UHGV virus genome: UHGV-0371278
Source: a virus
Strand: one strand, 5' to 3'
DNA: 64,000 bases
Shown: in pieces, positions 10,165 to 63,053 of the stretch
Layout: each line of letters starts with the position of its first letter
Position numbering within the stretch: position 1 is the first letter of the stretch
Made by a program: the position numbers and the translations under genes
The notes under the pieces: generated by a model
What the model was told of the DNA's origin: nothing
The model's input: only the letters and a program-made list of their open reading frames with translations
The model's database searches: none

Positions 10165-11726
10165 AAGCCAAAACCTATCCCGTCAAGGGCATGAAGACCG
10201 AGGCTATGCAGCACCAGTTCAATGCCCTGGAGGCTTCCCTTAACAAAAGGAATTTCGCATACCTGATGGAGCAAGGCACCGGGAAGACATGGACTACTTT
10301 GGCAGACTCAGTTAGGCTCTTCCTGCAAGGAAGGGTTGACGCGCTGCTCATCGTCGCCCCCAAGGGCGTACACACGAACTGGATTCTGCGCGAGATTCCC
10401 ACCCACGTTGCTATCAAGACTCTGTGCGTGGATTGGCGCGGCCGACCGACTTCCAAAAAGGCCAGGGCGCGTCTGGATCGTCTGTATGCCGAGACATTCG
10501 CTGATGAAAAAGTTCTTCGGGTCTTTGCCATAAACGTCGATGCCATCAACCACCAGGCTGGCTATGATGAGGTCGAGCGATTCCTTGATACATTCAAAGT
10601 TTGCGCAATTGTGGACGAGTCAACGAGGATCAAAAACCCACAAGCCAAGCGTGCGAAAAAGATCGTAAAGCTGGGCGAGAAGGCCGTGGCCCGTCGCATC
10701 CTTTCCGGAACTCCTCTGACGCGGGCACCGACCGATTTGTTCATGCAGTTCCAATTCTTGCGGAATGGAATTCTGGGGACTAAATCCTATCGGGCGTTTG
10801 TGGCCGAATTTTCCGTTCTGGTTCCCAGCGACGATCCGCGAATGGTCGCCATCATGCGCAAATTGGATGGGAAGAGTACAGTCCCCCCTCAGCTCGTCGA
10901 GAAAGACGATCTTGGACGACCAGTATTCCGAAATCTCGACAAACTGCGGTCCCTGATCGAGCCACACAGCTTCCGGGTCACGAAGAAAGAGGCATTACCA
11001 TTCCTGCCAGAAAAGGTTTACAAGCGCATATATTTCGAAATGTCGCCTGAGCAAAGGAAGGTTTATCAGCGAGTGGAAGAAGACTACCACTTCGTTCTCA
11101 AGAACGAAGACTTCATGCTGGACGTATCTTTCGATGCTGCGGCAGCGCGTTCGAAGCTCAAGCAAGTTGCATCCGGCTATATCAACGTCTATGGCGAGCC
11201 GGTGATCCTGCCGCCCGAAGACAACCCGCGATTCGCCGTGTTTACTGATCTTCTGGAGGGTCTGCTGGAGGAAGACCAGGAGCGCTCCATCATCATCTGG
11301 GCCATGCGCATTCAGGAAATCGACCAGATCAAGGCGTATCTGGAGGCCAAAGGAATTTCGTTTGGAGCCTATTATGGCGAGACCAAAGAGGCCGAGCGGG
11401 AAAAATTGATCGACGATTTCCAGGCCAAGCGCGTCCAGGTGTTCCTGGGCAACCCGGCCGCTGCTGGGATCGGAATCACGCTCACTGCCGCAGACGTGGC
11501 AATTTACTACACGACCGACGAAGACAACGAGTTGCGGATGCAGTCCGAAGACAGAAACCATCGCATCGGGACCATCAACTCTGTCCTGTACTTCGACCTC
11601 ATCTGTCTGGACTCCATCGACGAGAAAATCCAGGTTAGCTTGGAGTGGAAGCGCAATCTTGCGAGTTATGTCGTCGATGGAGTGTTCGAGGCTGACGTTA
11701 GCACTCGCGACGAATTTAATATGTAA
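10161..11726 (+). CDS. SNF2/Rad54-family DEAD-like helicase
   Basis: motif II IVDESTRIKN, C-terminal helicase domain; ATGA overlap with upstream gene. Confidence 0.8.
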   Translation: MKAKTYPVKGMKTEAMQHQFNALEASLNKRNFAYLMEQGTGKTWTTLADSVRLFLQGRVDALLIVAPKGVHTNWILREIPTHVAIKTLCVDWRGRPTSKKARARLDRLYAETFADEKVLRVFAINVDAINHQAGYDEVERFLDTFKVCAIVDESTRIKNPQAKRAKKIVKLGEKAVARRILSGTPLTRAPTDLFMQFQFLRNGILGTKSYRAFVAEFSVLVPSDDPRMVAIMRKLDGKSTVPPQLVEKDDLGRPVFRNLDKLRSLIEPHSFRVTKKEALPFLPEKVYKRIYFEMSPEQRKVYQRVEEDYHFVLKNEDFMLDVSFDAAAARSKLKQVASGYINVYGEPVILPPEDNPRFAVFTDLLEGLLEEDQERSIIIWAMRIQEIDQIKAYLEAKGISFGAYYGETKEAEREKLIDDFQAKRVQVFLGNPAAAGIGITLTAADVAIYYTTDEDNELRMQSEDRNHRIGTINSVLYFDLICLDSIDEKIQVSLEWKRNLASYVVDGVFEADVSTRDEFNM

Positions 11727-13475: not shown

Positions 13476-14085
13476 ATGGACTGGAAAGACATAGGTAGTA
13501 AGATCGGCGCGGCTGCCCCGGCTCTGGGGTCGCTCCTGGGTGGGCCTGCAGGCGCCGCCGTTGGCGCTATCGTCGCGACGGCGCTGGGGTCGAAGGCCGA
13601 CCCAGCCTCGGTCGCTAGCGCTCTAGACGCGAATCCGGAAGCTCTAGCGCGTCTCGCCGAACTCCAGAGCGCCGAGCGCGTTCGTCTCCAGGAGCTTGCG
13701 ATTCAAGCCGAACAAAATCGCCTTCAGTCTGAGCAGAACCAGCTCCATGCCGAGCTTAGCCAGTTCGCCGCAGAGGCGGCCGACAGGGATTCTGCGAGGA
13801 GGCTTGCGGCGGCGCAGCAGAACGATTTCGTTCGCCCGGCGATCAAATTCGCTCTTCTGACAGGCTCCATTCTCATCATCATCGCAATCTTCACATTCGG
13901 CCTGCGAGGCTCTGATGGACCCGACATCCTCGGTCGCCATCGGCACCATCATCGGCTATTGGTTCGCCGAGCTGAAGTCGGTAATGGCCTTCTACTTCGG
14001 CACAACCAAGGATGGATCGCGCCAGAGCACGGCGTCCATAATCAACGCAGTCAAATCCCAAATCCAAAAGGAATCGAAAGAATGA
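13476..14085 (+). CDS. GTA-type 3TM-holin-like protein, apparently disrupted by a +1 frameshift near 13925
   Basis: N-terminus MDWKDIGSKIGAAAPALGSLLGGPAGAA and ADRDSARR resemble the GTA-type 3TM-holin family; conserved C-terminal IIGYWF...YFGTTKDGS motif lies in the +1 frame ending at TGA 14083-14085 that overlaps the mazG ATG. Confidence 0.45.
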
Positions 14086-15610: not shown

Positions 15611-15678
15611 GACACTAGATCGAAATAAACCCGGACGCCTTATCCTAAAGGCGTCCGGGTTTATTTCGATCTAGTGTC
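15611..15678. terminator. bidirectional terminator, 29-bp perfect stem with 10-nt loop
   Basis: gacactagatcgaaataaacccggacgcc/ggcgtccgggtttatttcgatctagtgtc perfect inverted repeat; inner GC stem flanked by A/T runs. Confidence 0.7.
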
Positions 15679-19774: not shown

Positions 19775-21289
19775 TTACTCCTGAATGACTTTTACATCGC
19801 AACCGGCGCAAGTCGGCATGATACCGACCGCCCGGTCATTCATGAGGTTGATCAATTGCGGCGACAAATTAAGCGCCGGACCAACTCTGTATTCTAGCTT
19901 GAACGCCCCACTAGTGGGTAGGCCGATGTATGCAGGACTGGACAAATTGAATGTATCTTGAATCCCATCCCCTACTGCGAATCTGGCCGGCTCGGCCGCA
20001 GTCCCACCTTTCCAGTCTCCAGTCCAATACGCTTCGGCTCCAGTCGGAAGAGGCTGGGTGAACTTGACCGTTCCGGTTTGGACGTTCTGCAGAACATAAT
20101 CGGTGATGGTGGCAGGGGTTCCTGTGGTCGCCAAGTATCCGGTTGGAGTATCACCCAGTTCGATCTGAGCACCCCAAATTAGGACATCAATCGCCCCGCT
20201 GGAACTCGAATCAATCCAGCTGAAGTTGGTTTCTGCCGGAGCGACGTAAGCAGCGCGGAACGAAGAACTGACGGTTTTGGTCGTGAGAACGCAACGCCAC
20301 CAGCCATCTTCCAAACGAATCATGCGAGCGCTTACCACGCTGCTGTCCAACATCTGATCGCTGATTACGTTCCCGGCGTCCAGATCGAAAACGGCATCGG
20401 CGCGACTAGGAAAGTCGGCAGCGGACTGGATTGCAATGAAACGGGTGGAGCCGGCTTTCGCGAAGAACGAGAATGTGACAGTTTTACCGGCCTCTAGCGG
20501 CCCATCTATCGACGCGGAGACGTAGGCGGTACTCCCGGCCGGCTTAGTAAGCTTGCACACCGTAGCGGAGCCGTCCGGGGCCGTAGCGGACGCCGTTTCG
20601 ACCGTTACCGGACGGCCGCTCGCGGCCGGATCGACACCAGGCCAATCAGCGTCACTGGCAGGGGTCGATATCAGCACATGGTTCGTCCTGGGCGAGCTAG
20701 ACAATAAAACCATCCCTTCCCAATCTTTCCGATATATGGCCAAGTTCTCCACAGGTCCATTCTCGCCGGTTGAGTCCATGAGATAGAAGTACAACCCGGC
20801 CGCCACGTCCCACGGCTCATCATCGTTGAATATGTAGCGAAGCATGCGATTGATATATGCAATCGAGCCGTTCGAAATCAGCGCTACATATCTTAGCTGA
20901 AGCACTTTCCTGATTTCGTCCAAGTTGAGGATTTCGGCATTGCCGCCACCGTAGAAGTTGCCGCCCGGCGATGCGTCTGCAGGCGGCGGAACCTGATTCC
21001 CGCTATAAACGAAGTTATGGCGCAGCCGACCGAACGCCCAAGAGCGGTTTTTTTGATACAGGCCGAAGCCTTTCGAAGGCGTGCCGAGGATGATGCACCA
21101 CACCACAAGGCCGAACGGGTTGGCAGTCTTCAAATTGAAAACGTCGCGCTCCCAGTTCACCCAAAATTGACGGCTGAAACGATCATACCATTGAGCTTTT
21201 CGCTGAACCAAGCCGGTGATCCCAGGAGCCTGGTTTTGGAGCCACTTCAGCGCCTGTTGAATATCGGAATTGTACGCAGGCAAAGTCAT
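19775..21289 (-). CDS. baseplate wedge/tail protein (P2 gpI / Mu gp48-like N-terminus) with C-terminal extension
   Basis: position after baseplate J; conserved N-terminal region. Confidence 0.45.
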   Translation of the reverse strand: MTLPAYNSDIQQALKWLQNQAPGITGLVQRKAQWYDRFSRQFWVNWERDVFNLKTANPFGLVVWCIILGTPSKGFGLYQKNRSWAFGRLRHNFVYSGNQVPPPADASPGGNFYGGGNAEILNLDEIRKVLQLRYVALISNGSIAYINRMLRYIFNDDEPWDVAAGLYFYLMDSTGENGPVENLAIYRKDWEGMVLLSSSPRTNHVLISTPASDADWPGVDPAASGRPVTVETASATAPDGSATVCKLTKPAGSTAYVSASIDGPLEAGKTVTFSFFAKAGSTRFIAIQSAADFPSRADAVFDLDAGNVISDQMLDSSVVSARMIRLEDGWWRCVLTTKTVSSSFRAAYVAPAETNFSWIDSSSSGAIDVLIWGAQIELGDTPTGYLATTGTPATITDYVLQNVQTGTVKFTQPLPTGAEAYWTGDWKGGTAAEPARFAVGDGIQDTFNLSSPAYIGLPTSGAFKLEYRVGPALNLSPQLINLMNDRAVGIMPTCAGCDVKVIQE

Positions 21290-45515: not shown

Positions 45516-46004
45516 ATGGATACCGTCGCTGATCCGATGAAGGACAAAATCACGCTGCAAGGCCTGGGCTTCATCCAGGTCCAGCTTCCGGCAGGCCGCC
45601 TCCATGTATGGCATCCGGAGCTGCCGCGCCGGATTTGCTTCCATCACTCTTCCATCCACGATCATCGATTCGATTTCGAGTCCTTGGTTCTGGTTGGGTC
45701 TATGGAGAACATAAACTATTACGTTGACCGTTCGGCGCGCCTCTGTGAATTGACTCATGAAGGGTATGAGCACTCTTCGGCTCGCCAGGCCTGTGGCGGT
45801 CGCGGTTGGGAGCCTGTAGGCTCTGTATGCCTGCGCCAGAGGCAAGAATTCATCATCGGCGCCGGACAGCAATACTCGATGTCGGCTTATGTCCCTCACA
45901 GGACGAATCCGCTCGGTGACGGTCGCGTGGCCACTCTCATTCGAAAGGGCGCCGTTCACAAATGGCCGGCCACTTCCTATGTGACCCTGGGAGTCGACCA
46001 CTGA
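45516..46004 (+). CDS. cupin-like metal-binding protein
   Basis: HDHRFDFESLVLVG fits cupin motif 1 HxH(x)4E(x)5G. Confidence 0.35.
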   Translation: MDTVADPMKDKITLQGLGFIQVQLPAGRLHVWHPELPRRICFHHSSIHDHRFDFESLVLVGSMENINYYVDRSARLCELTHEGYEHSSARQACGGRGWEPVGSVCLRQRQEFIIGAGQQYSMSAYVPHRTNPLGDGRVATLIRKGAVHKWPATSYVTLGVDH

Positions 46005-46119
46005 AACCGACTTCGACCGTTATCAGTGGTCGGCTCCGACGCTCTGGGAAGTCGTCACTGATGTCCTCGGCGGCGCAGAGTTCCAAATCCCATCCATTCC
46101 TTGACCGAAGGAACCTAAA

Positions 46120-50441: not shown

Positions 50442-50600
50442 ATGAACGCAAACCAGCAAATAGAAGCATTCTTCCTGGCTCGCAAAGCGGAAGGGTGCGG
50501 CAATAGCAGAGCCTTGGATGCGACCGTCGAGCACTTCGCACAATACAACCCTATGTACGTGCGGACTCACATTCGCCACTGCGCGCTTTGGGATACCTAA
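50442..50600 (+). CDS. small protein (52 aa), not in ORF track
   Basis: GGAGGG RBS 8 nt upstream; downstream of promoter copy. Confidence 0.35.
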   Translation: MNANQQIEAFFLARKAEGCGNSRALDATVEHFAQYNPMYVRTHIRHCALWDT

Positions 50601-50691
50601 TCAACATTCGGATGCGGACACGCCTTCCATGGGAGGAAATATTCCTGACGAACAGACCGCTCGTCCACTTTGAGAAATATTTCACAATTCT

Positions 50692-50744
50692 GCTTTACTT
50701 CCATTCTGAATAGCGTCATAATCTCTTCATCGAAACGCGAAACA
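50692..50744 (+). promoter_or_regulatory. promoter-family copy
   Basis: GCTTTACTTCCATTCTGAATAGCGTCATAATCTCTTCATCGAAACGCGAAAC. Confidence 0.55.
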
Positions 50745-50767
50745 CTCCAAAACAGAGGAACGCAGAA

Positions 50768-51019
50768 ATGACCAAATCCAAATGGAACATCGGCAGAAAC
50801 GACACCATCGCAGTCGAGGCCGTAAACAGCCGCGAAGACTTCCGCTGGAATGGCAAGATTCGCGTCATCCACTACAGCGCCGGTCAAATCGTCAACATCA
50901 TCGAGTTCTATCACCACGACCTGGACTGGGCGATCAAGAATTTCGGCATCAAGCTCAAGGCCATCTCCAAGGGCCTGGAAATCCTCCACACCTGCTACTT
51001 CGGGAAGTATGTCAAGTGA
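50768..51019 (+). CDS. hypothetical protein
   Basis: first ORF after promoter. Confidence 0.45.
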   Translation: MTKSKWNIGRNDTIAVEAVNSREDFRWNGKIRVIHYSAGQIVNIIEFYHHDLDWAIKNFGIKLKAISKGLEILHTCYFGKYVK

Positions 51020-54631: not shown

Positions 54632-54650
54632 CCGTCGCAGCATCGTCCAG

Positions 54651-54681
54651 AAAACACCGCAGCCTGTCCTGCGGTGTTTTC
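54651..54681 (+). terminator. rho-independent terminator
   Basis: aacaccgcag/ctgcggtgtt stem + tttt. Confidence 0.6.
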
Positions 54682-56261: not shown

Positions 56262-57094
56262 TGAGTATGGCGCGATTGTACTATGGGGCCAGGGAGCACG
56301 TCTATGGGCTGCTGGTGGTTGGCCTGTAGGTCTGGGTGGGTTTGATGGTGAATGAGTGTTAGGTGGTGTTATAGGATGTTATATGGGCGGTCCGCTGGCG
56401 AGTGAGGATCGGATTGGCTGGTGGCGGGCGATGGTGGCGGTGAGTGTTTGGATTGAATGTTAAATCGAATGTTAGGAATATGTCCAGATGAGCGATTCTG
56501 CCTTGTGGCCAAATTTCCGGTTCCGCTCGTCGAGTTTTGGTCACTGCCGCTTAGTCCGCCGTGGTGTTGCCGCTGCCCATGGTTTGGAAGGACGGAAGTT
56601 TCCGGCGACCCTGCCGCGAGTTGAGCGGAATCGGAAACTTGACTGGTAGTGTACAGGCTTAGTGCCGCGAGGCTTTCAAACCTAAAACCATAACAAATTA
56701 CCAAATTCCCATTAATTTTATTAATTTTAAAGATAGGTAACGTACGTGATAGATTTTTTCTATTAGGATTGTGCAATCGATTTTCGCTGTAGAATAGTTT
56801 TAAACCATGCTCGGAAAACTGGGAATTCGGGAAAACGGCCGCAAACCCACGCGGCAGTAGGCCTCCCGAATTCCCAGTCAGAATAGCAATCCAGGAATTT
56901 GCGGCTATTTCCCACAAAAAATCCACCTCAAACCCACAATTTCTCAACATTTCACGCAAAATCCAACCATCATACACTCCAGACCAATACCGAAAATCTA
57001 TCAATTCCCCACAATACACCGCCGCCACAACACCCTAATTCCCACATAGCTTTCGAACCTCACCCGTTCACAGGCTAAATTAATGTTCTCCGCG
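56262..57094. repeat. noncoding element B: strand-skewed iteron-like GT-rich (56300-56490) and CA-rich (56911-57055) arms around an AT-rich core bounded by imperfect inverted repeats gcttagtgccgcgag (56657-56671) / cgcggcagtaggc (56850-56863); candidate replication origin
   Basis: about 830 bp without credible ORF; homologous to element A; adjacent to primase genes. Confidence 0.5.
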
Positions 57095-59217: not shown

Positions 59218-60294
59218 CTACTCCTCGCCGATATGACGGCGGTTGATGCGTTCAAGTTGTTCGACAATATACGGCAGGACGACTTCATCGGTGAAGGCCG
59301 CCCATGTCCGTCGATGCTCTTTGCGGCAAGTATCGTGCCCGCATCCGAACACATATTCGTGCTCGGCGCCAGGTATCGGTCCGCGAAAGTATGCGCCGAA
59401 AGGATCGCCATTTGTGTGCTCGTCGCCCCAGGGACAGCGGATGCGGTATTTGCCGGACATATTCTGCTGGACCTGGCCGCCTGCCGCTTCTCCCATCTTG
59501 TATTTCGTGCAGATGTGCTCGGCATACTTCAACCATACTTGGTCATACAACCAATCGTCGCGGTTTATCTCCACCTTCTTCATCTGTGGCATGATGATGC
59601 GGACGCCAAAGGCCTGGGCGATTTCCTCTGGTGAGTAGCGCTTGGAATAGTCTGCGTGATACAGGCGAACCAGTTCGGGCTTGCCGTTTTCGTCTGCATA
59701 TTTGAAGTTGCCGTCTTTCCCGCGCTTGTTGTTGAAGCCGAAAGGCATGCGACCATAACGGCTGACGTCTTTGACGGTGTTGTCGCCGCCTTTCTTTAGC
59801 ACCTGGTCCACGAACGAATAGAGCAGCGCCTTGAACTGGAGCATGTGGGCCATCGGCTCTTTGAAGAAATACCAGAACTGGTAGTTGTTCGGCGAAGTCT
59901 CCACAATCGCGGTCGGCTCCAGGCGTTCGCGGAACTCGTCGCGGTCGAAGTCGCCTTTGGAACCTTTGCCGGAGCCGATGTCATCGACCATTAACGCCAG
60001 GCCGTGGCCGAAAGAGGCCTCGCCGCGCCAGTATCGCATCTGGCCGGTCTTCGGGTTGGGCGTCTTGATGGATGACGAGATACAGGCATATGCGTTGGAT
60101 CTGGAATTGATGTACTTGCCTTCCTTCCAGGGAACTGGCCACCAGCCTGCGTTGAGCTTGCGGCCGTTTTCGTCGGTCTGGACTGTGGCCTCTTCAGCGT
60201 AGCCGACCATCACCCGTTCGTCGTCCGGAATCCCTCTGCCGAGTTCTCGCAGGAATTCTTCGGCCTGAGCCAGTCTTATTTCGTGAGGCTTCAT
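59218..60294 (-). CDS. archaeo-eukaryotic primase (prim-pol)-like protein with Cys/His zinc motif
   Basis: LALMVDDIGSGKG (DxD-type) and CPWGDEHT...CGHDTC; ATG at MKPHE overlaps upstream stop (ATGA). Confidence 0.5.
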   Translation of the reverse strand: MKPHEIRLAQAEEFLRELGRGIPDDERVMVGYAEEATVQTDENGRKLNAGWWPVPWKEGKYINSRSNAYACISSSIKTPNPKTGQMRYWRGEASFGHGLALMVDDIGSGKGSKGDFDRDEFRERLEPTAIVETSPNNYQFWYFFKEPMAHMLQFKALLYSFVDQVLKKGGDNTVKDVSRYGRMPFGFNNKRGKDGNFKYADENGKPELVRLYHADYSKRYSPEEIAQAFGVRIIMPQMKKVEINRDDWLYDQVWLKYAEHICTKYKMGEAAGGQVQQNMSGKYRIRCPWGDEHTNGDPFGAYFRGPIPGAEHEYVFGCGHDTCRKEHRRTWAAFTDEVVLPYIVEQLERINRRHIGEE

Positions 60295-60740
60295 GCAAGT
60301 CGCTCCGGGCGCCCCTTGCGTCGAGGCACTTCCACGAACTGTCGCGCAGCACTCGCCTTTCTGGCGGAGTTTAGTCCATCTTCGTGGACCCGACTCCATG
60401 CTTCCATGATCTTGTGCTGCCGCGCCTTTTCGAGCGCCGGGGGAATCTTCGCATCGTCGATGCCGCGCACCCACATGAACATCAGGAACGTCGCCAGGTC
60501 CAAGAGGTTGTTCTCATTTCCCTTCAGCGCATGTTCGGCGAATCCGTTGATCAGAATATCTTCGTCGCAGTCGATCCAGCCGCCTCGGCCTTTATCGCGG
60601 GAGCGCTGTAACTTCTGGCGGATCGCCGTTGCGAACATGGACAGGGCATACTCGTCCTGAGCTTCAGGCTTTGCCTTCCTGAGAACGTCGAGGCTGGTCA
60701 TGATGACTCCATCTACTGGTGAAGGTTTCTTCTGTTCCAT
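60291..60740 (-). CDS. hypothetical protein
   Basis: ORF in operon. Confidence 0.4.
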   Translation of the reverse strand: MEQKKPSPVDGVIMTSLDVLRKAKPEAQDEYALSMFATAIRQKLQRSRDKGRGGWIDCDEDILINGFAEHALKGNENNLLDLATFLMFMWVRGIDDAKIPPALEKARQHKIMEAWSRVHEDGLNSARKASAARQFVEVPRRKGRPERLA

Positions 60741-60895
60741 TACATGAATTCCTTACTTGGCACTTACCGCTCGCACCCGCAGCGGGCAGGATGGGCCTGT
60801 GGTTGCTGGCACGGCTGAGGATGCGCGGCCGGATCGATGGGTGAGGGAGCTACGGCGAGCATTTGCCGTAAATCTCGCCGATGCTGTTTACCGCG

Positions 60896-61273
60896 TCATA
60901 ACGCAGGGACTGACCGACATAGGTCATCTGCGATGTCGGGTCCATCGGTACGAGCTTCCACCCCCTCCGGCACGCTGTGCTGAGCCGAGCTGCCGGGCGC
61001 GGCGATAAACTTCCCATCTTCAAACGCCGTAGCCAATTCGGTCGCTACCCGCTGACACTGCTTCAAGTGGCCGACGAACAGTTCACGCGTTCCATCCCCC
61101 GCACGCACGCAGTATGGCCAGAAACCCTTCCCAGTTTTTTCTACGCGGTACCGCTCAAGCCCGAACACCTCCGGCACAACATCCGCCCTTGCGCGCAGTG
61201 CTGCGACTTCCTGCCTTAGCGCCTGGGCCTCGACCTGCCGGCGGCGCTCTGCCTGCACGTCGAGGCCCAGGCG
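60896..61273 (-). CDS. C-terminal continuation of the DnaJ-zinc-finger repeat protein, separated from it by an in-frame TAG
   Basis: same reading frame as 61274-62257; contains the third AAPGSSAQHSVPEG repeat. Confidence 0.35.
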   Translation of the reverse strand, partial: RLGLDVQAERRRQVEAQALRQEVAALRARADVVPEVFGLERYRVEKTGKGFWPYCVRAGDGTRELFVGHLKQCQRVATELATAFEDGKFIAAPGSSAQHSVPEGVEARTDGPDIADDLCRSVPAL

Positions 61274-62257
61274 CTAAGGCACCGAGTTGCCGGGCGCGGC
61301 GGCGAGCAGTTCGCGAGCCGCCAACAGAACCTGCTCTGTAGCCTCCATGCTCGTGGTGTATTCCGTCCGACTCGCTGCAAGATCGGTAACACGCTCGACG
61401 AACCGGTAGTCGAGAGTCCAGCCCTGTTCTTTTTCCTGCTCAGAAGCTTCCGGCACGCTGTGCAGGGCCTGGGTGAGCACGTCGGCGGATATGGCGCGCA
61501 AAAAGTTCTGAATTGCTCGCATATCTTCCTCGCTGGGTTCGTTACGCAGATACAGCACTACAGCTCTGGGATGTTCGGCATCGCGACCGATGCCAGATAT
61601 TTCCGGCACGCTGTGCTGAGCCTTGGCGACCGCTAGCGCCTCGTTGAGCCGGAACCCTTCGTGCACCCAGTCCGTCAACTTCCCTTCCAGCTCCGCGACC
61701 CTGGCCAAGGCGGCGTCGCGTTCCACTTTATAACGACAATAAGGATGGCCGTATTCATCGCCGACTACGCCGTCACAATAGCTCGCGGCCAGCTCGCTCC
61801 CGCGCTTTTCGGATTCGGCCAGTGCCTTTTCCAGCCGGCCGATTTCTTCAATGGCGTCTGCAAGCCTATTCGCATCGGTCTTTTCGAACTTAGGGGCAAT
61901 TTGAGGATTATCTTCGATTGGCTTCTGCGACCATTCGCTGATCCACCCCTGGCCGCGGCCATTGCAAACAGTACACTTCCCCCGAAGCAACGTCTGACCG
62001 ATTCCCTTGCAAGCGGCGCACTTCCCCAGAAACCCGACTTCGACGCGCTCAATCCCGGCCTTGGTGAGCGTCCATTCCATCCTAAGATGGCCGGTGCCTG
62101 CCCAGTTTTCGAATTTTTTCGCCTTTACATACCCCATCTGCCGAAGTTCATTTAGCGCCTGATTGTTGGGGCCTGTGAAGGCCGGCTGATCGGGATTGTT
62201 ATACAGATATAACAATGCGGTTTGATGGTGGTGATTCAAAGTCGGTTTATTATACAT
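61274..62257 (-). CDS. DnaJ-type zinc-finger (CAACKGIG/CTVCNGRG) protein with AQHSVPE repeats, ends at in-frame amber 61274-61276
   Basis: GAGGTG RBS upstream of ATG at 62257; CxxCxGxG x2. Confidence 0.45.
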   Translation of the reverse strand: MYNKPTLNHHHQTALLYLYNNPDQPAFTGPNNQALNELRQMGYVKAKKFENWAGTGHLRMEWTLTKAGIERVEVGFLGKCAACKGIGQTLLRGKCTVCNGRGQGWISEWSQKPIEDNPQIAPKFEKTDANRLADAIEEIGRLEKALAESEKRGSELAASYCDGVVGDEYGHPYCRYKVERDAALARVAELEGKLTDWVHEGFRLNEALAVAKAQHSVPEISGIGRDAEHPRAVVLYLRNEPSEEDMRAIQNFLRAISADVLTQALHSVPEASEQEKEQGWTLDYRFVERVTDLAASRTEYTTSMEATEQVLLAARELLAAAPGNSVP

Positions 62258-62267
62258 GCCATTCACC

Positions 62268-63053
62268 TCAATTACAGATGGCGATGTTGAGAACTTTATC
62301 GCGCCCGGCCGCGAACTTCTCCAGGAAGTCCACCAGGTCATTCAGGATGGTCCCCGCTCGACCTAGCTTGTGGCCGATCAGGAGCTGCGCGACTCGGTGT
62401 CCGACGAATTTCCCCGAAGGAATCTTCGGCCATGTTTCGCCGATGCTTTTGAGTACTGCATCAGTATAGGTTTTGTCCGCGCCGACTTTGTGGTGATCGA
62501 GGATCGTGCGATCACGAACGTATCGATTGATGATCCGCCGCAGGAACTCGTCTTCAGTCCCGGCCAGGGCGCCGCACTCGCGGAGTTGGCGCAGGAGACG
62601 CCACCCCAAGTTCCGCTCCCACTTTTCGGCGAACTCTTCGGCTTCGGCGAATGACGCTCGCATGATGTGATCGACTGGAATAATGACGGCGCCGCCTTCT
62701 TTCGTTCCGGCTTCCATGACCGCCCATTCGCCATGCTCGCGATGCTCGATGAAGCCGATCAGCATGCCGATGAAAGCTCCATCTTCCGGAACTCCGGTCA
62801 CGCGAACGACGGAATGGCGCGGGAAGGCTTTCGATCCATAAAGGCTGGACTGTGAATTGACCCATCCGGCCTTGGCCAAGTCGGATGCTTCGGCGTGGAT
62901 CAGCTCGCGACGGATGCGAACGGCCAGCGCCGGGTCCAGCTCGCGGCTGCGACGCAGGAAACCGGGCTTAAGGTTCGGGTCGCGGGTCTTGTCGACATTG
63001 GGATTCGGATTACCGACCGGGAGTTGGTCGCGGGAAATCTTGCATTCTTGCAT
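62268..63053 (-). CDS. hypothetical protein
   Basis: first gene of leftward early operon. Confidence 0.45.
   Translation of the reverse strand: MQECKISRDQLPVGNPNPNVDKTRDPNLKPGFLRRSRELDPALAVRIRRELIHAEASDLAKAGWVNSQSSLYGSKAFPRHSVVRVTGVPEDGAFIGMLIGFIEHREHGEWAVMEAGTKEGGAVIIPVDHIMRASFAEAEEFAEKWERNLGWRLLRQLRECGALAGTEDEFLRRIINRYVRDRTILDHHKVGADKTYTDAVLKSIGETWPKIPSGKFVGHRVAQLLIGHKLGRAGTILNDLVDFLEKFAAGRDKVLNIAICN

What the first reader, a model, noticed from the sequence alone, without database searches (positions are those of the whole stretch)
61259..61300. In-frame amber codon splits a repeat-containing DnaJ-zinc-finger gene; the paralogous repeat has GAG (Glu) at that position
ORFs 61274-62257 and 60896-61258 are in the same frame, separated only by TAG at 61274-61276. 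The peptide before the stop is ...LAAAPGNSVP*, and the downstream repeat reads AAPGSSAQHSVPEG. Nucleotide alignment of the two repeat copies (61262-61299 versus 60962-61000) puts the TAG opposite GAG, so a single G-to-T change created the stop.

Possible explanations are a nonsense (amber) mutation as in classical phage amber mutants, a recent pseudogenisation, a sequencing error, or regulated readthrough.

The gene also carries four copies of a roughly 22-bp nucleotide repeat TTCCGGCACGCTGTGCTGAGCC (60962, 61448, 61596 and a degenerate copy at 61262) encoding AQHSVPE.
Basis: seen in the sequence. Interest (0 to 1): 0.55.

Follow-up and report, generated by a model that had tools for sequence, protein, structure and literature searches.

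The report
Hairpin-templated amber stop in phage gene
The in-frame amber stop is real in this assembled Pseudomonas phage genome, but it was made when a 13-base patch was copied from the opposite arm of a nearby imperfect hairpin, which truncates an already decaying accessory gene; it is an ordinary mutational scar, not a regulated signal.

Summary
The window is a nearly complete, metagenome-assembled Pbunavirus (PB1-like Pseudomonas aeruginosa phage). The TAG at 61274-61276 (minus strand) is present and lies in frame between the two ORFs, as reported. The proposed origin, GAG to TAG by one G-to-T change, is wrong.

Orthologues read GTG CCG CAG GCA TGG CTC GAC (V P Q A W L D). The window reads GTG CCT TAG CGC CTG GGC CTC GAC. 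That is three substitutions plus three inserted bases in one 13-nt patch, with 100% identity to phage BrSP1 on both sides. The patch is the exact reverse complement of a sequence 36 nt downstream that every relative carries. It turns an imperfect inverted repeat into a perfect 23-bp one. This is the signature of a quasipalindrome template-switch mutation.

The allele was found in no other public sequence searched. TAG is a normal stop in this genome, no tRNA is encoded, and the downstream GTG has no ribosome-binding site and sits at the base of the new hairpin.

The same gene also carries a +1 G and a -1 base that put its conserved C-terminus out of frame. The gene is a highly mosaic accessory gene of unknown function and is not a DnaJ. 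Three other window-specific hairpin-perfecting changes exist, and one creates a TGA in another gene. An in-vitro artefact cannot be excluded.

The parts
61274..61276 (-). In-frame amber codon (TAG). The orthologous codon in relatives is CAG (Gln).
61265..61277 (-). 13-nt templated patch TTAGCGCCTGGGC. It replaces the ancestral 10 nt GCAGGCATGG, by three substitutions plus three inserted bases. The net gain of 3 nt keeps the reading frame.
   Evidence: BrSP1 is identical over 211 nt except in this patch. The 13-mer occurs exactly twice in the window, here and as its reverse complement at 61216-61228.
61259..61281 (-). New arm of the perfect 23-bp inverted repeat, TGCCTTAGCGCCTGGGCCTCGAC. The flanking CTCGAC (61259-61264) and TGCC (61278-61281) were already complementary to the other arm in relatives, and are the likely switch and return points.
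61212..61234 (-). Donor arm GTCGAGGCCCAGGCGCTAAGGCA, which encodes V E A Q A L R Q. It is present unchanged in all Pbunavirus relatives that carry this module.
61235..61258 (-). 24-nt spacer of the hairpin, itself partly self-complementary. Its first three bases are the GTG (61256-61258) that opens the downstream ORF.
61277..62257 (-). Truncated 327-aa product. It contains an N-terminal winged-helix-like region, two CxxCxGxG motifs, long helices and two internal modules.
   Evidence: The exact 327-aa sequence is present in ENA and Logan assemblies. The AlphaFold model has low confidence.
60764..61273 (-). Remainder of the ancestral gene, now untranslated or poorly translated. It runs in frame as far as the TGA at 60896-60898. 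That TGA is reached only because of a +1 frameshift. The ancestral stop is the TAA at 60764-60766.
   Evidence: The gene caller used for the source contig called no gene here.
60961..60965 (-). G-run with 5 G in the window. Six relatives have 4 G, and PA4 has 3. The extra G is a +1 frameshift that removes the conserved C-terminal module GWKLVPMDPTSQ...GCER.
60868..60869 (-). Site of a 1-nt deletion (ACCGG to ACGG in the gene sense). It is unique to the window and restores the ancestral frame, but only after the premature TGA.
60965..60986 (-). Copy 1 of the 22-bp linker repeat encoding AQHSVPE.
61448..61469 (-). Copy 2 of the linker repeat, encoding ALHSVPE. It marks the left boundary of the roughly 190-bp module that 14-1 and JG024 lack.
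61601..61622 (-). Copy 3 of the linker repeat, encoding AQHSVPE. Relatives read AQPSVPE at this position.

Best explanation
**What happened.** The amber codon is a by-product of a quasipalindrome-associated template-switch mutation in a Pbunavirus genome.

**Ancestral state.** The ancestral sequence is kept in BrSP1, ph0031 and several P. aeruginosa prophage-like contigs. It was an imperfect inverted repeat: TGCC-GCAGGCATGG-CTCGAC, then 24 nt, then GTCGAG-GCCCAGGCGCTAA-GGCA.

**Proposed steps (inferred).**
1. The window + strand was being synthesised.
2. The nascent 3' end GTCGAG (61259-61264) mispaired with the CTCGAC it had just made (61229-61234), or with the equivalent on the other parental strand.
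3. It copied 13 nt from that wrong template.
4. It returned to the correct template through the 4-bp GGCA/TGCC match.

**Result.** The codons Q A W (CAG GCA TGG) were replaced by * R L G (TAG CGC CTG GGC). This is a net +3 nt, so the frame is preserved. A perfect 23-bp hairpin was created.

**Consequence.** Translation stops after residue 327. Re-initiation at the GTG 18 nt downstream is unlikely, because there is no Shine-Dalgarno sequence and the site is buried in a very stable stem. Two further indels have already broken the C-terminal part. In this lineage the gene is therefore a truncated or decaying copy of a dispensable, highly mosaic accessory gene.

**Shown versus inferred.**
- Shown: the stop, the frame, the templated nature of the patch, its uniqueness among the sequences searched, and the absence of any recoding signal.
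- Inferred: that the switch happened in vivo during phage replication, which strand was involved, and the loss of function.
For: **The patch is templated.**
- BrSP1 is 100% identical to the window for 83 nt upstream and 115 nt downstream of the site. It differs only within the 13-nt patch (codons).
- The patch TTAGCGCCTGGGC occurs exactly twice in 64 kb, once at the site and once as the reverse complement 36 nt away. The chance expectation is 0.03.
- The result is a perfect 23-bp inverted repeat, the second longest in the window.
- The DNA hairpin is -43.1 kcal/mol (z -6.5), against -26.9 (z -0.8) in BrSP1. As RNA the values are -73 and -45 kcal/mol.

**Direction of change.**
- The ancestral form ...SVP(Q/K)AWLDVQAERRRQ is present in more than 100 Pbunavirus records.
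- It is also present in 7 IMG/VR contigs in which the donor arm is absent.

**Uniqueness.** The derived allele is absent from GenBank phages, IMG/VR, GTDB genomes and JGI metagenomes.

**The change is present in the sequenced DNA.** The exact 327-aa product is recorded from both an ENA assembly and a Logan assembly.

**No recoding.** No tRNA is encoded, and TAG terminates 7 of 85 conserved genes.

**The gene is decaying.**
- The +1 G and the -1 base are unique to the window.
- Viable isolates also carry broken copies: JG024, PA4 and Wadjak 6.

**The mechanism is established.** Quasipalindrome mutations make an inverted repeat 'perfect or more perfect', and were first seen in T4 rIIB (PMC7202029). 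Template switching creates perfect hairpin stems in evolution (PMC8794818).

**The same signature recurs in this contig.** It is seen at 45998-46000, 15648-15678 and 56820/56868-56870.
Against: - No reads are available, so allele frequency and coverage at the site are unknown.
- The ENA and Logan assemblies probably derive from the same reads. They are therefore not independent confirmation.
- Four hairpin-perfecting changes occur in one contig, and two of them create stops in conserved ORFs. The contig also has unique 1-nt indels. Together these could point to an in-vitro process such as amplification or library preparation rather than evolution.
- The enrichment of window-unique differences in perfect inverted-repeat arms is only moderate: 12 observed against 3.2 expected for arms of 12 nt or more.
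- Loss of function is inferred, because nothing is known about what the protein does.
Confidence: 0.7

Rival explanations
1. The patch is an in-vitro or computational artefact. A polymerase switched templates at the quasipalindrome during whole-genome amplification, PCR or library preparation, and the product reached the assembly consensus. The phage itself would carry the intact CAG GCA TGG sequence.
For: - The contig is a metagenome assembly with a MEGAHIT-style name, k141_251156.
- It carries four window-unique hairpin-perfecting changes.
- It also carries several unique 1-nt indels that break conserved ORFs.
- Library preparation and multiple displacement amplification are documented to create opposite-strand chimeras at inverted repeats (PMC6941819, PMC10908179, PMC1855051).
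Against: - Those artefacts are reported at low allele frequency, and mostly as fold-back chimeras. They are not usually precise double switches that return to the template.
- A de Bruijn assembler needs k-mers spanning the patch and both flanks, so molecules carrying the complete patch must have dominated the reads.
- Collapse of the two arms by the assembler is implausible. The pre-existing shared stems are 4 and 6 bp, far below k of 21 to 141. This is an inference.
- Two assemblies give the same product.
- Pa-A, an isolate genome, also shows clustered unique changes in inverted-repeat arms. This suggests the process is natural in these phages.
Confidence: 0.22
2. One reading: a single G-to-T substitution converted a GAG (Glu) codon, still visible in the paralogous repeat, into TAG.
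For: Aligning the two intragenic repeat copies puts TAG opposite GAG.
Against: - Orthologues have CAG at this codon, not GAG.
- They differ from the window at six positions in a 13-nt patch that includes three inserted bases.
- Every one of these differences equals the complement of the nearby arm.
Confidence: 0.01
3. The stop is functional. One version is that it is read through, bypassed or suppressed to make a full-length protein. The other is that it deliberately separates two genes, with the second starting at the GTG at 61258.
For: - The two ORFs share a frame.
- A very stable hairpin surrounds the stop. This is superficially reminiscent of recoding signals.
Against: - The stop is in no relative.
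- No suppressor tRNA is encoded.
- TAG is a normal terminator in this genome.
- There is no Shine-Dalgarno sequence before the GTG, and the GTG lies at the base of the stem.
- The gene caller used on the source contig did not call the downstream ORF.
- A full-length product would still hit the frameshift-induced TGA at 60896.
Confidence: 0.03
4. The patch was imported by recombination from another phage or prophage allele that already carried this sequence.
For: The gene is extremely mosaic. Modules are exchanged with temperate P. aeruginosa phages at conserved linkers.
Against: - No donor allele exists in any collection searched.
- The flanks are 100% identical to BrSP1 right up to the patch.
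- Exact complementarity to the adjacent arm would be an unexplained coincidence.
Confidence: 0.03

Closest known systems
Quasipalindrome-associated template-switch mutations (Ripley 1982: T4 rIIB and yeast CYC1; E. coli thyA and lacZ QP reporters from the Lovett laboratory; PMC7202029)
   Same: - An imperfect inverted repeat becomes perfect.
- A clustered multi-base change, including indels, is confined to one arm.
- Every changed base equals the complement of the other arm.
- Short perfect stems flank the patch and can serve as switch and return points.
   Different: - This case is inferred from comparative genomics of a metagenome-assembled phage, not from a selected mutant.
- The patch is relatively long at 13 nt, and the spacer is 24 nt.
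- An in-vivo origin has not been shown.
Short template-switch mutations that create or maintain hairpins in evolution (PMC8794818; PMC7954356; PMC8604942)
   Same: - One event explains a mutation cluster.
- The event produces a long perfect stem.
- It affects coding sequence.
   Different: Here the outcome is a premature stop in a phage accessory gene, not a conserved RNA structure or a protein innovation.
Classical phage amber (nonsense) mutants
   Same: An in-frame TAG truncates a phage protein. The phenotype would be suppressor-dependent if the gene mattered.
   Different: - The stop arose by a templated patch, not a point mutation.
- It was not selected in the laboratory.
- The gene is apparently dispensable and is additionally frameshifted.
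DnaJ / Hsp40 cysteine-rich zinc-finger domain (Pfam PF00684)
   Same: Two CxxCxGxG motifs are present: CAACKGIG and CTVCNGRG.
   Different: - The score is below the Pfam threshold.
- DnaJ has four such motifs; this protein has two.
- There is no J domain and no DnaJ C-terminal domain.
- The family is PHROG phrog_5310, of unknown function.

Membership tests
Quasipalindrome template-switch mutation | A pre-existing imperfect inverted repeat in the ancestral sequence | tested here: met
   BrSP1 and ph0031 carry TGCC...CTCGAC / GTCGAG...GGCA, with a partly complementary interior.
Quasipalindrome template-switch mutation | The changed bases are clustered in one arm, and each equals the complement of the other arm | tested here: met
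   All 6 differences from BrSP1 in 211 nt lie in the 13-nt patch, which is the exact reverse complement of 61216-61228.
Quasipalindrome template-switch mutation | [quoted passage not shown] | tested here: met
   The arms are a perfect 23 bp. The DNA hairpin is -43.1 against -26.9 kcal/mol.
Quasipalindrome template-switch mutation | It arose during DNA replication in vivo | not testable with these tools
   This needs raw reads, an isolate, or a mutation-accumulation experiment.
Stop-codon reassignment or suppressor-dependent recoding of TAG | TAG is avoided as a terminator, in-frame TAGs occur in many genes, and a suppressor tRNA is encoded | tested here: not met
   TAG ends 7 of 85 conserved genes. 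There are 0 tRNA genes. Only this gene showed an in-frame TAG in the comparison with Epa13 proteins.
Programmed readthrough or translational bypass | The stop and its flanking signal are conserved in relatives | tested here: not met
   The allele is absent from all collections searched. Relatives have an uninterrupted ORF.
DnaJ / Hsp40 | A J domain with an HPD motif | tested here: not met
   No PF00226 hit at E of 0.1 or better. The NCBIfam DnaJ_bact model scores 18.9 bits on a homologue against a cut-off of 377.
DnaJ / Hsp40 | A cysteine-rich domain with four CxxCxGxG motifs that passes the Pfam threshold | tested here: not met
   Only two motifs are present. The score is 16.5 bits against a cut-off of 32.7.
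PHROG phrog_5310 (Pbunavirus mosaic accessory protein, function unknown) | A full-length match to the family profile | tested here: met
   14-1 ORF70 matches at E = 3.7e-206 over positions 1-434. The window's 327-aa product matches at E = 2.9e-134 over profile positions 1-303 of 384.

The most novel reading that the evidence does not exclude
Hairpin-perfecting template switching may be an unusually active mutational process in this phage lineage, or in Pbunaviruses generally. Possible reasons include their replication mode, or exposure to agents such as fluoroquinolones that stimulate quasipalindrome mutagenesis. On this reading the process repeatedly knocks out accessory genes. The recurrent independent disruptions of this mosaic gene (this contig, JG024, PA4, Wadjak 6) would then reflect selection for its loss, for example escape from a host defence that senses it, rather than neutral decay.
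Probability: 0.1. Interest if true: 0.55.

Novelty: new member of a known kind. Interest (0 to 1): 0.3.

Why it matters
- **For annotation.** The two ORFs should be treated as one disrupted gene, that is a pseudogene or truncated allele. They are not two genes and not a recoding site. The 'DnaJ' label should be dropped.
- **For mutation biology.** This is a clean natural example of a single template-switch event that looks like six independent changes and creates a nonsense codon. Three further examples lie in the same 64-kb genome. Clustered differences next to inverted repeats in phage and metagenome assemblies should be checked for this signature before they are read as selection, recombination or recoding.
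- **As a quality flag.** If the changes are artefacts, this pattern offers a diagnostic for amplified or enzymatically fragmented virome libraries.

Tried and rejected
- **Recoding or suppression.** Rejected: no tRNA is encoded, and TAG is used as a terminator.
- **Restart at the GTG at 61258 or other in-frame starts.** Rejected: no credible Shine-Dalgarno sequence, and the site is buried in the stem. No promoter or terminator was called on the gene strand.
- **Searches for the derived allele elsewhere.** All came back with nothing: GenBank phages, IMG/VR, GTDB genomes and JGI metagenomes.
- **Function of the gene.**
  - Pfam, NCBIfam and PHROGs gave only a family of unknown function and a sub-threshold DnaJ zinc-finger motif.
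  - The AlphaFold model of the 327-aa product was too poor for a fold search, with mean pLDDT 50.
- **Assembler collapse of the two arms.** Considered and judged implausible, because the shared stems (4 and 6 bp) are far shorter than any k used. This is an inference.
- **Candidate inverted repeats that turned out not to be window-specific.**
  - 20830-20891 and 11611-11683 are shared with 33-36 relatives.
  - The arms of 54650-54681 are the same in Epa13.
- **Source sample.** A literature search for the accession found nothing.
- **T4 gene 60-like bypass.** Considered and dismissed: the stop is not conserved, and no matching landing codon exists in frame.
Full report
**What the window is**

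Megablast of 60000-63000 finds 343 phage records, nearly all Pseudomonas aeruginosa PB1-like phages of the genus Pbunavirus. Proteins of phage Epa13 map along almost the whole window. The window is 100% identical to ENA metagenome contig ERZ27230454:k141_251156 (64,416 nt) and wraps around it, so it is an essentially complete circular assembly. No GenBank phage is closer than about 94% identity overall. The gene in question, however, is 98-99% identical to several isolates.

**Checking the observation**

On the minus strand, an ORF starting at ATG 62257 runs to TAG at 61276-61274. The same frame continues through R L G L D to a GTG at 61258, and on to TGA at 60898-60896.

The 22-bp repeat is real in three copies, at 60965, 61448 and 61601, with none expected by chance. 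The 'fourth copy' shares only the preceding GCCGCGCCCGGCA(A/G)CTCGG stretch.

**What relatives have at this position**

The gene is a single uninterrupted CDS in three relatives:
- 14-1 ORF70, 434 aa
- BrSP1 ORF-90, 509 aa
- ph0031

BrSP1 is identical to the window for 211 nt around the site except in one patch:
- Window: GTG CCT TAG CGC CTG GGC CTC GAC
- BrSP1: GTG CCG CAG GCA TGG CTC GAC, encoding V P Q A W L D

That is three substitutions and three inserted bases. The net gain of 3 nt explains why the two ORFs share a frame. The ancestral codon is therefore CAG, not GAG, and the change is not a point mutation.

**Where the patch came from**

The 13-mer TTAGCGCCTGGGC occurs exactly twice in the 64-kb window. 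One copy is at the site (61265-61277, minus strand). The other is its reverse complement at 61216-61228, 36 nt downstream in the gene. The chance expectation is 0.03.

The downstream copy encodes part of ...V E A Q A L R Q... and is unchanged in every relative that has this module. In relatives the two regions already form an imperfect inverted repeat, with perfect CTCGAC/GTCGAG and TGCC/GGCA stems around a mismatched interior. In the window the interior has been rewritten as the exact complement. This gives a perfect 23-bp inverted repeat with a 24-nt spacer, the second longest perfect inverted repeat in the window.

Predicted hairpin stability rises accordingly:

| Molecule | Window | BrSP1 |
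|---|---|---|
| DNA | -43.1 kcal/mol (z = -6.5) | -26.9 kcal/mol (z = -0.8) |
| RNA | -73 kcal/mol | -45 kcal/mol |

This is the defining signature of a quasipalindrome-associated template-switch mutation. In that mechanism a nascent strand transiently copies the other arm, and the repeat becomes 'perfect or more perfect'. It was first described in T4 rIIB (PMC7202029) and is known to create long perfect stems in evolution (PMC8794818).

**Direction and uniqueness**

The ancestral motif ...SVP(Q/K)AWLDVQAERRRQ... is found in more than 100 Pbunavirus records. It is also found in 7 IMG/VR contigs, in most of which the donor arm is absent because a different module follows. The window allele is therefore the derived one.

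The derived allele was not found in GenBank phages, IMG/VR, one genome per GTDB species or JGI metagenomes. The exact 327-aa truncated product is recorded from both the ENA assembly and a Logan assembly. Molecules carrying the patch therefore dominated those reads. The two assemblies probably share the same reads, though, so they are not independent evidence.

**Is the stop functional?**

Nothing suggests that it is.
- No tRNA is encoded.
- TAG terminates 7 of 85 conserved genes, including the primase and a helicase.
- The GTG at 61258 has no Shine-Dalgarno sequence and lies at the base of the new stem.
- The gene caller used on the source contig did not call the downstream ORF.
- No terminator or promoter is predicted on the gene strand.

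**Further damage to the same gene**

Compared with seven relatives, the window has two more lesions:
- An extra G in a G-run (60961-60965: 5 G here, 4 in six relatives, 3 in PA4).
- One base missing at 60868/60869.

Neither indel is seen in about 150 relatives. Between the two indels the frame is shifted and hits TGA at 60896. The conserved C-terminal module, GWKLVPMDPTSQ...AHPARCGCER, therefore cannot be made even if the TAG were read through.

Independent disruptions of this gene exist in viable isolates:
- JG024: an A-run shortened by one base, annotated as two CDSs.
- PA4: the same G-run shortened by one base, annotated as two CDSs.
- Wadjak 6: a 303-aa product ending in a frameshifted tail.

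**What the gene is**

It belongs to PHROG phrog_5310, of unknown function. There is no significant Pfam or NCBIfam hit. The 'DnaJ' label rests on two CxxCxGxG motifs scoring 16.5 bits against a cut-off of 32.7, with no J domain. The AlphaFold model is poor (pLDDT 50), with a winged-helix-like N-terminus and long helices.

Homologues range from 195 to 571 aa and are strikingly mosaic:
- There are two alternative N-termini.
- There are two alternative C-termini.
- A variable set of internal modules is also shared with temperate P. aeruginosa phages and prophages.
- Modules are joined by the short linker A-Q-(H/P)-S-V-P-(E/K/D/Q).

The roughly 190-bp difference between the window/ph0031 type and the 14-1/JG024 type begins and ends at such linkers. 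They look like recombination junctions.

**The same signature elsewhere in the contig**

Three more inverted repeats are perfect here but imperfect in all relatives found. In each case the window-specific bases equal the complement of the other arm.
- **45995-46004 / 46023-46032.** GATC-CTGA became GACCACTGA. This is unique among 79 relatives and creates an in-frame TGA that truncates a conserved 195-aa protein at residue 163.
- **15611-15641 / 15648-15678.** A 31-bp perfect inverted repeat lies after the ligase gene, with about 7 changes in one arm. The best of 198 relatives is 95.5% identical.
- **56818-56832 / 56864-56878.** The only four differences from DL60 in 116 nt all perfect the repeat.

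Perfect-arm lengths in the window are 31, 23, 15, 13, 13 and shorter. The maximum is 11 in Epa13, 13 in Pa-A and 12 in shuffled sequence.

In a three-genome comparison, window-unique differences are enriched in perfect arms of 12 nt or more: 12 observed against 3.2 expected, p about 1e-4. The effect is moderate. Pa-A also shows clustered unique changes in inverted-repeat arms. Other candidates proved to be shared alleles.

The contig also has a unique 1-nt insertion at 13903 that breaks a conserved 201-aa gene.

**Interpretation**

The templated origin of the amber codon is very well supported. Whether the template switch happened in the phage or in a test tube cannot be settled without reads.

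In favour of a real mutation:
- Molecules carrying the complete patch with both flanks must have dominated the reads.
- Known library and amplification artefacts at inverted repeats are of low frequency and are usually fold-back chimeras (PMC6941819, PMC10908179, PMC1855051).
- Assembler collapse is implausible with 4-6 bp shared stems.
- An isolate genome shows similar inverted-repeat-associated clusters.

In favour of an artefact:
- Four such events plus unique indels sit in one metagenomic contig.
- Two of the events give immediate stops in conserved ORFs.

I put about 0.7 on a genuine mutation in a dispensable, decaying accessory gene, and about 0.2 on an in-vitro artefact.

**Verdict**

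This is a new instance of a well-known mutational mechanism, not a recoding or regulatory element. It is of modest interest, mainly as a clean natural example and as a caution for annotation and quality control.

Noticed in passing
window 45993-46032: A second window-specific hairpin-perfecting patch. Arm GATC-CTGA became GACCACTGA, the exact complement of TCAGTGGTC 18 nt downstream. It creates an in-frame TGA (V D H *) that truncates a conserved 195-aa hypothetical protein (Epa13 gp33, DL60 gp07) at residue 163. It is unique among 79 relatives.
   Followed up: yes
window 15611-15678: The longest perfect inverted repeat in the window: 31-bp arms with a 6-nt loop, in the intergenic region just after the DNA ligase gene. 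Relatives (PaW12, DRL-P1, Epa13, Pa-A) share an imperfect version with about 7 differences, all in the second arm. The best of 198 records is 95.5% identical. The RNA hairpin is -59 kcal/mol here against -35 in relatives.
   Followed up: partly
window 56818-56878: A perfect 15-bp inverted repeat with a 31-nt loop, containing GAATTC. The only four differences from the nearest relative DL60 in 116 nt (C>T in arm 1, ATC>GAA in arm 2) all make the repeat perfect. It is unique among 68 relatives.
   Followed up: partly
window 13903: A single T insertion (GGCCGCGAGG became GGCCTGCGAGG) splits a conserved 201-aa gene (Epa13 gp83). It is absent from all 210 relatives matched. It also extends a small GCC/GGC stem to GCCT/AGGC.
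   Followed up: partly
window ~44260: A 1-nt difference from Epa13 (CACAAGG against CACAGG) shifts the frame of a 115-aa hypothetical gene. The same length variant appears in phages TH15 and PSA09, so it is a shared natural allele rather than a defect of this contig.
   Followed up: partly
window 60764-62257, and proteins P0002-P0121: The gene family (phrog_5310) is extremely mosaic. It has two alternative N-termini, two alternative C-termini and many internal modules joined by the linker A-Q-(H/P)-S-V-P-(E/K/D/Q). The modules are shared at 92-100% nucleotide identity with temperate P. aeruginosa phages and prophages (DO4, JBD88b, PAShipCat1, PA_L9, PaMx31). The linkers look like intragenic recombination junctions.
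   Followed up: partly
window 60961-60965; L002 (JG024); L016 (PA4); P0037 (Wadjak 6): Homopolymer runs in this gene differ between isolates: a G-run of 3, 4 or 5; an A-run of 5 or 6 in JG024; and another G-run in Wadjak 6. This gives independently frameshifted copies in viable phages. It could reflect recurrent loss of the gene or sequencing errors.
   Followed up: partly
window 61610-61618: The window reads CAG CAC (AQHSVPE) where 14-1, JG024 and ph0031 read CAA CCC (AQPSVPE). This two-base cluster makes this linker copy identical to the copy at 60965-60986. That could be conversion between direct repeats or recombination with a prophage allele.
   Followed up: no
window ~50600-51016: Four consecutive Epa13 genes (gp42-gp45, including one annotated as a tape-measure protein fragment) have no counterpart in the window. 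This points to an accessory-gene indel region after the large terminase gene.
   Followed up: no
window ends (1 and 64000): The Dda-like helicase gene runs off the end of the window and resumes at its start, with about 275 nt missing. This is consistent with a circular 64,275-bp genome (a 64,416-nt contig minus a 141-nt k-mer overlap).
   Followed up: yes
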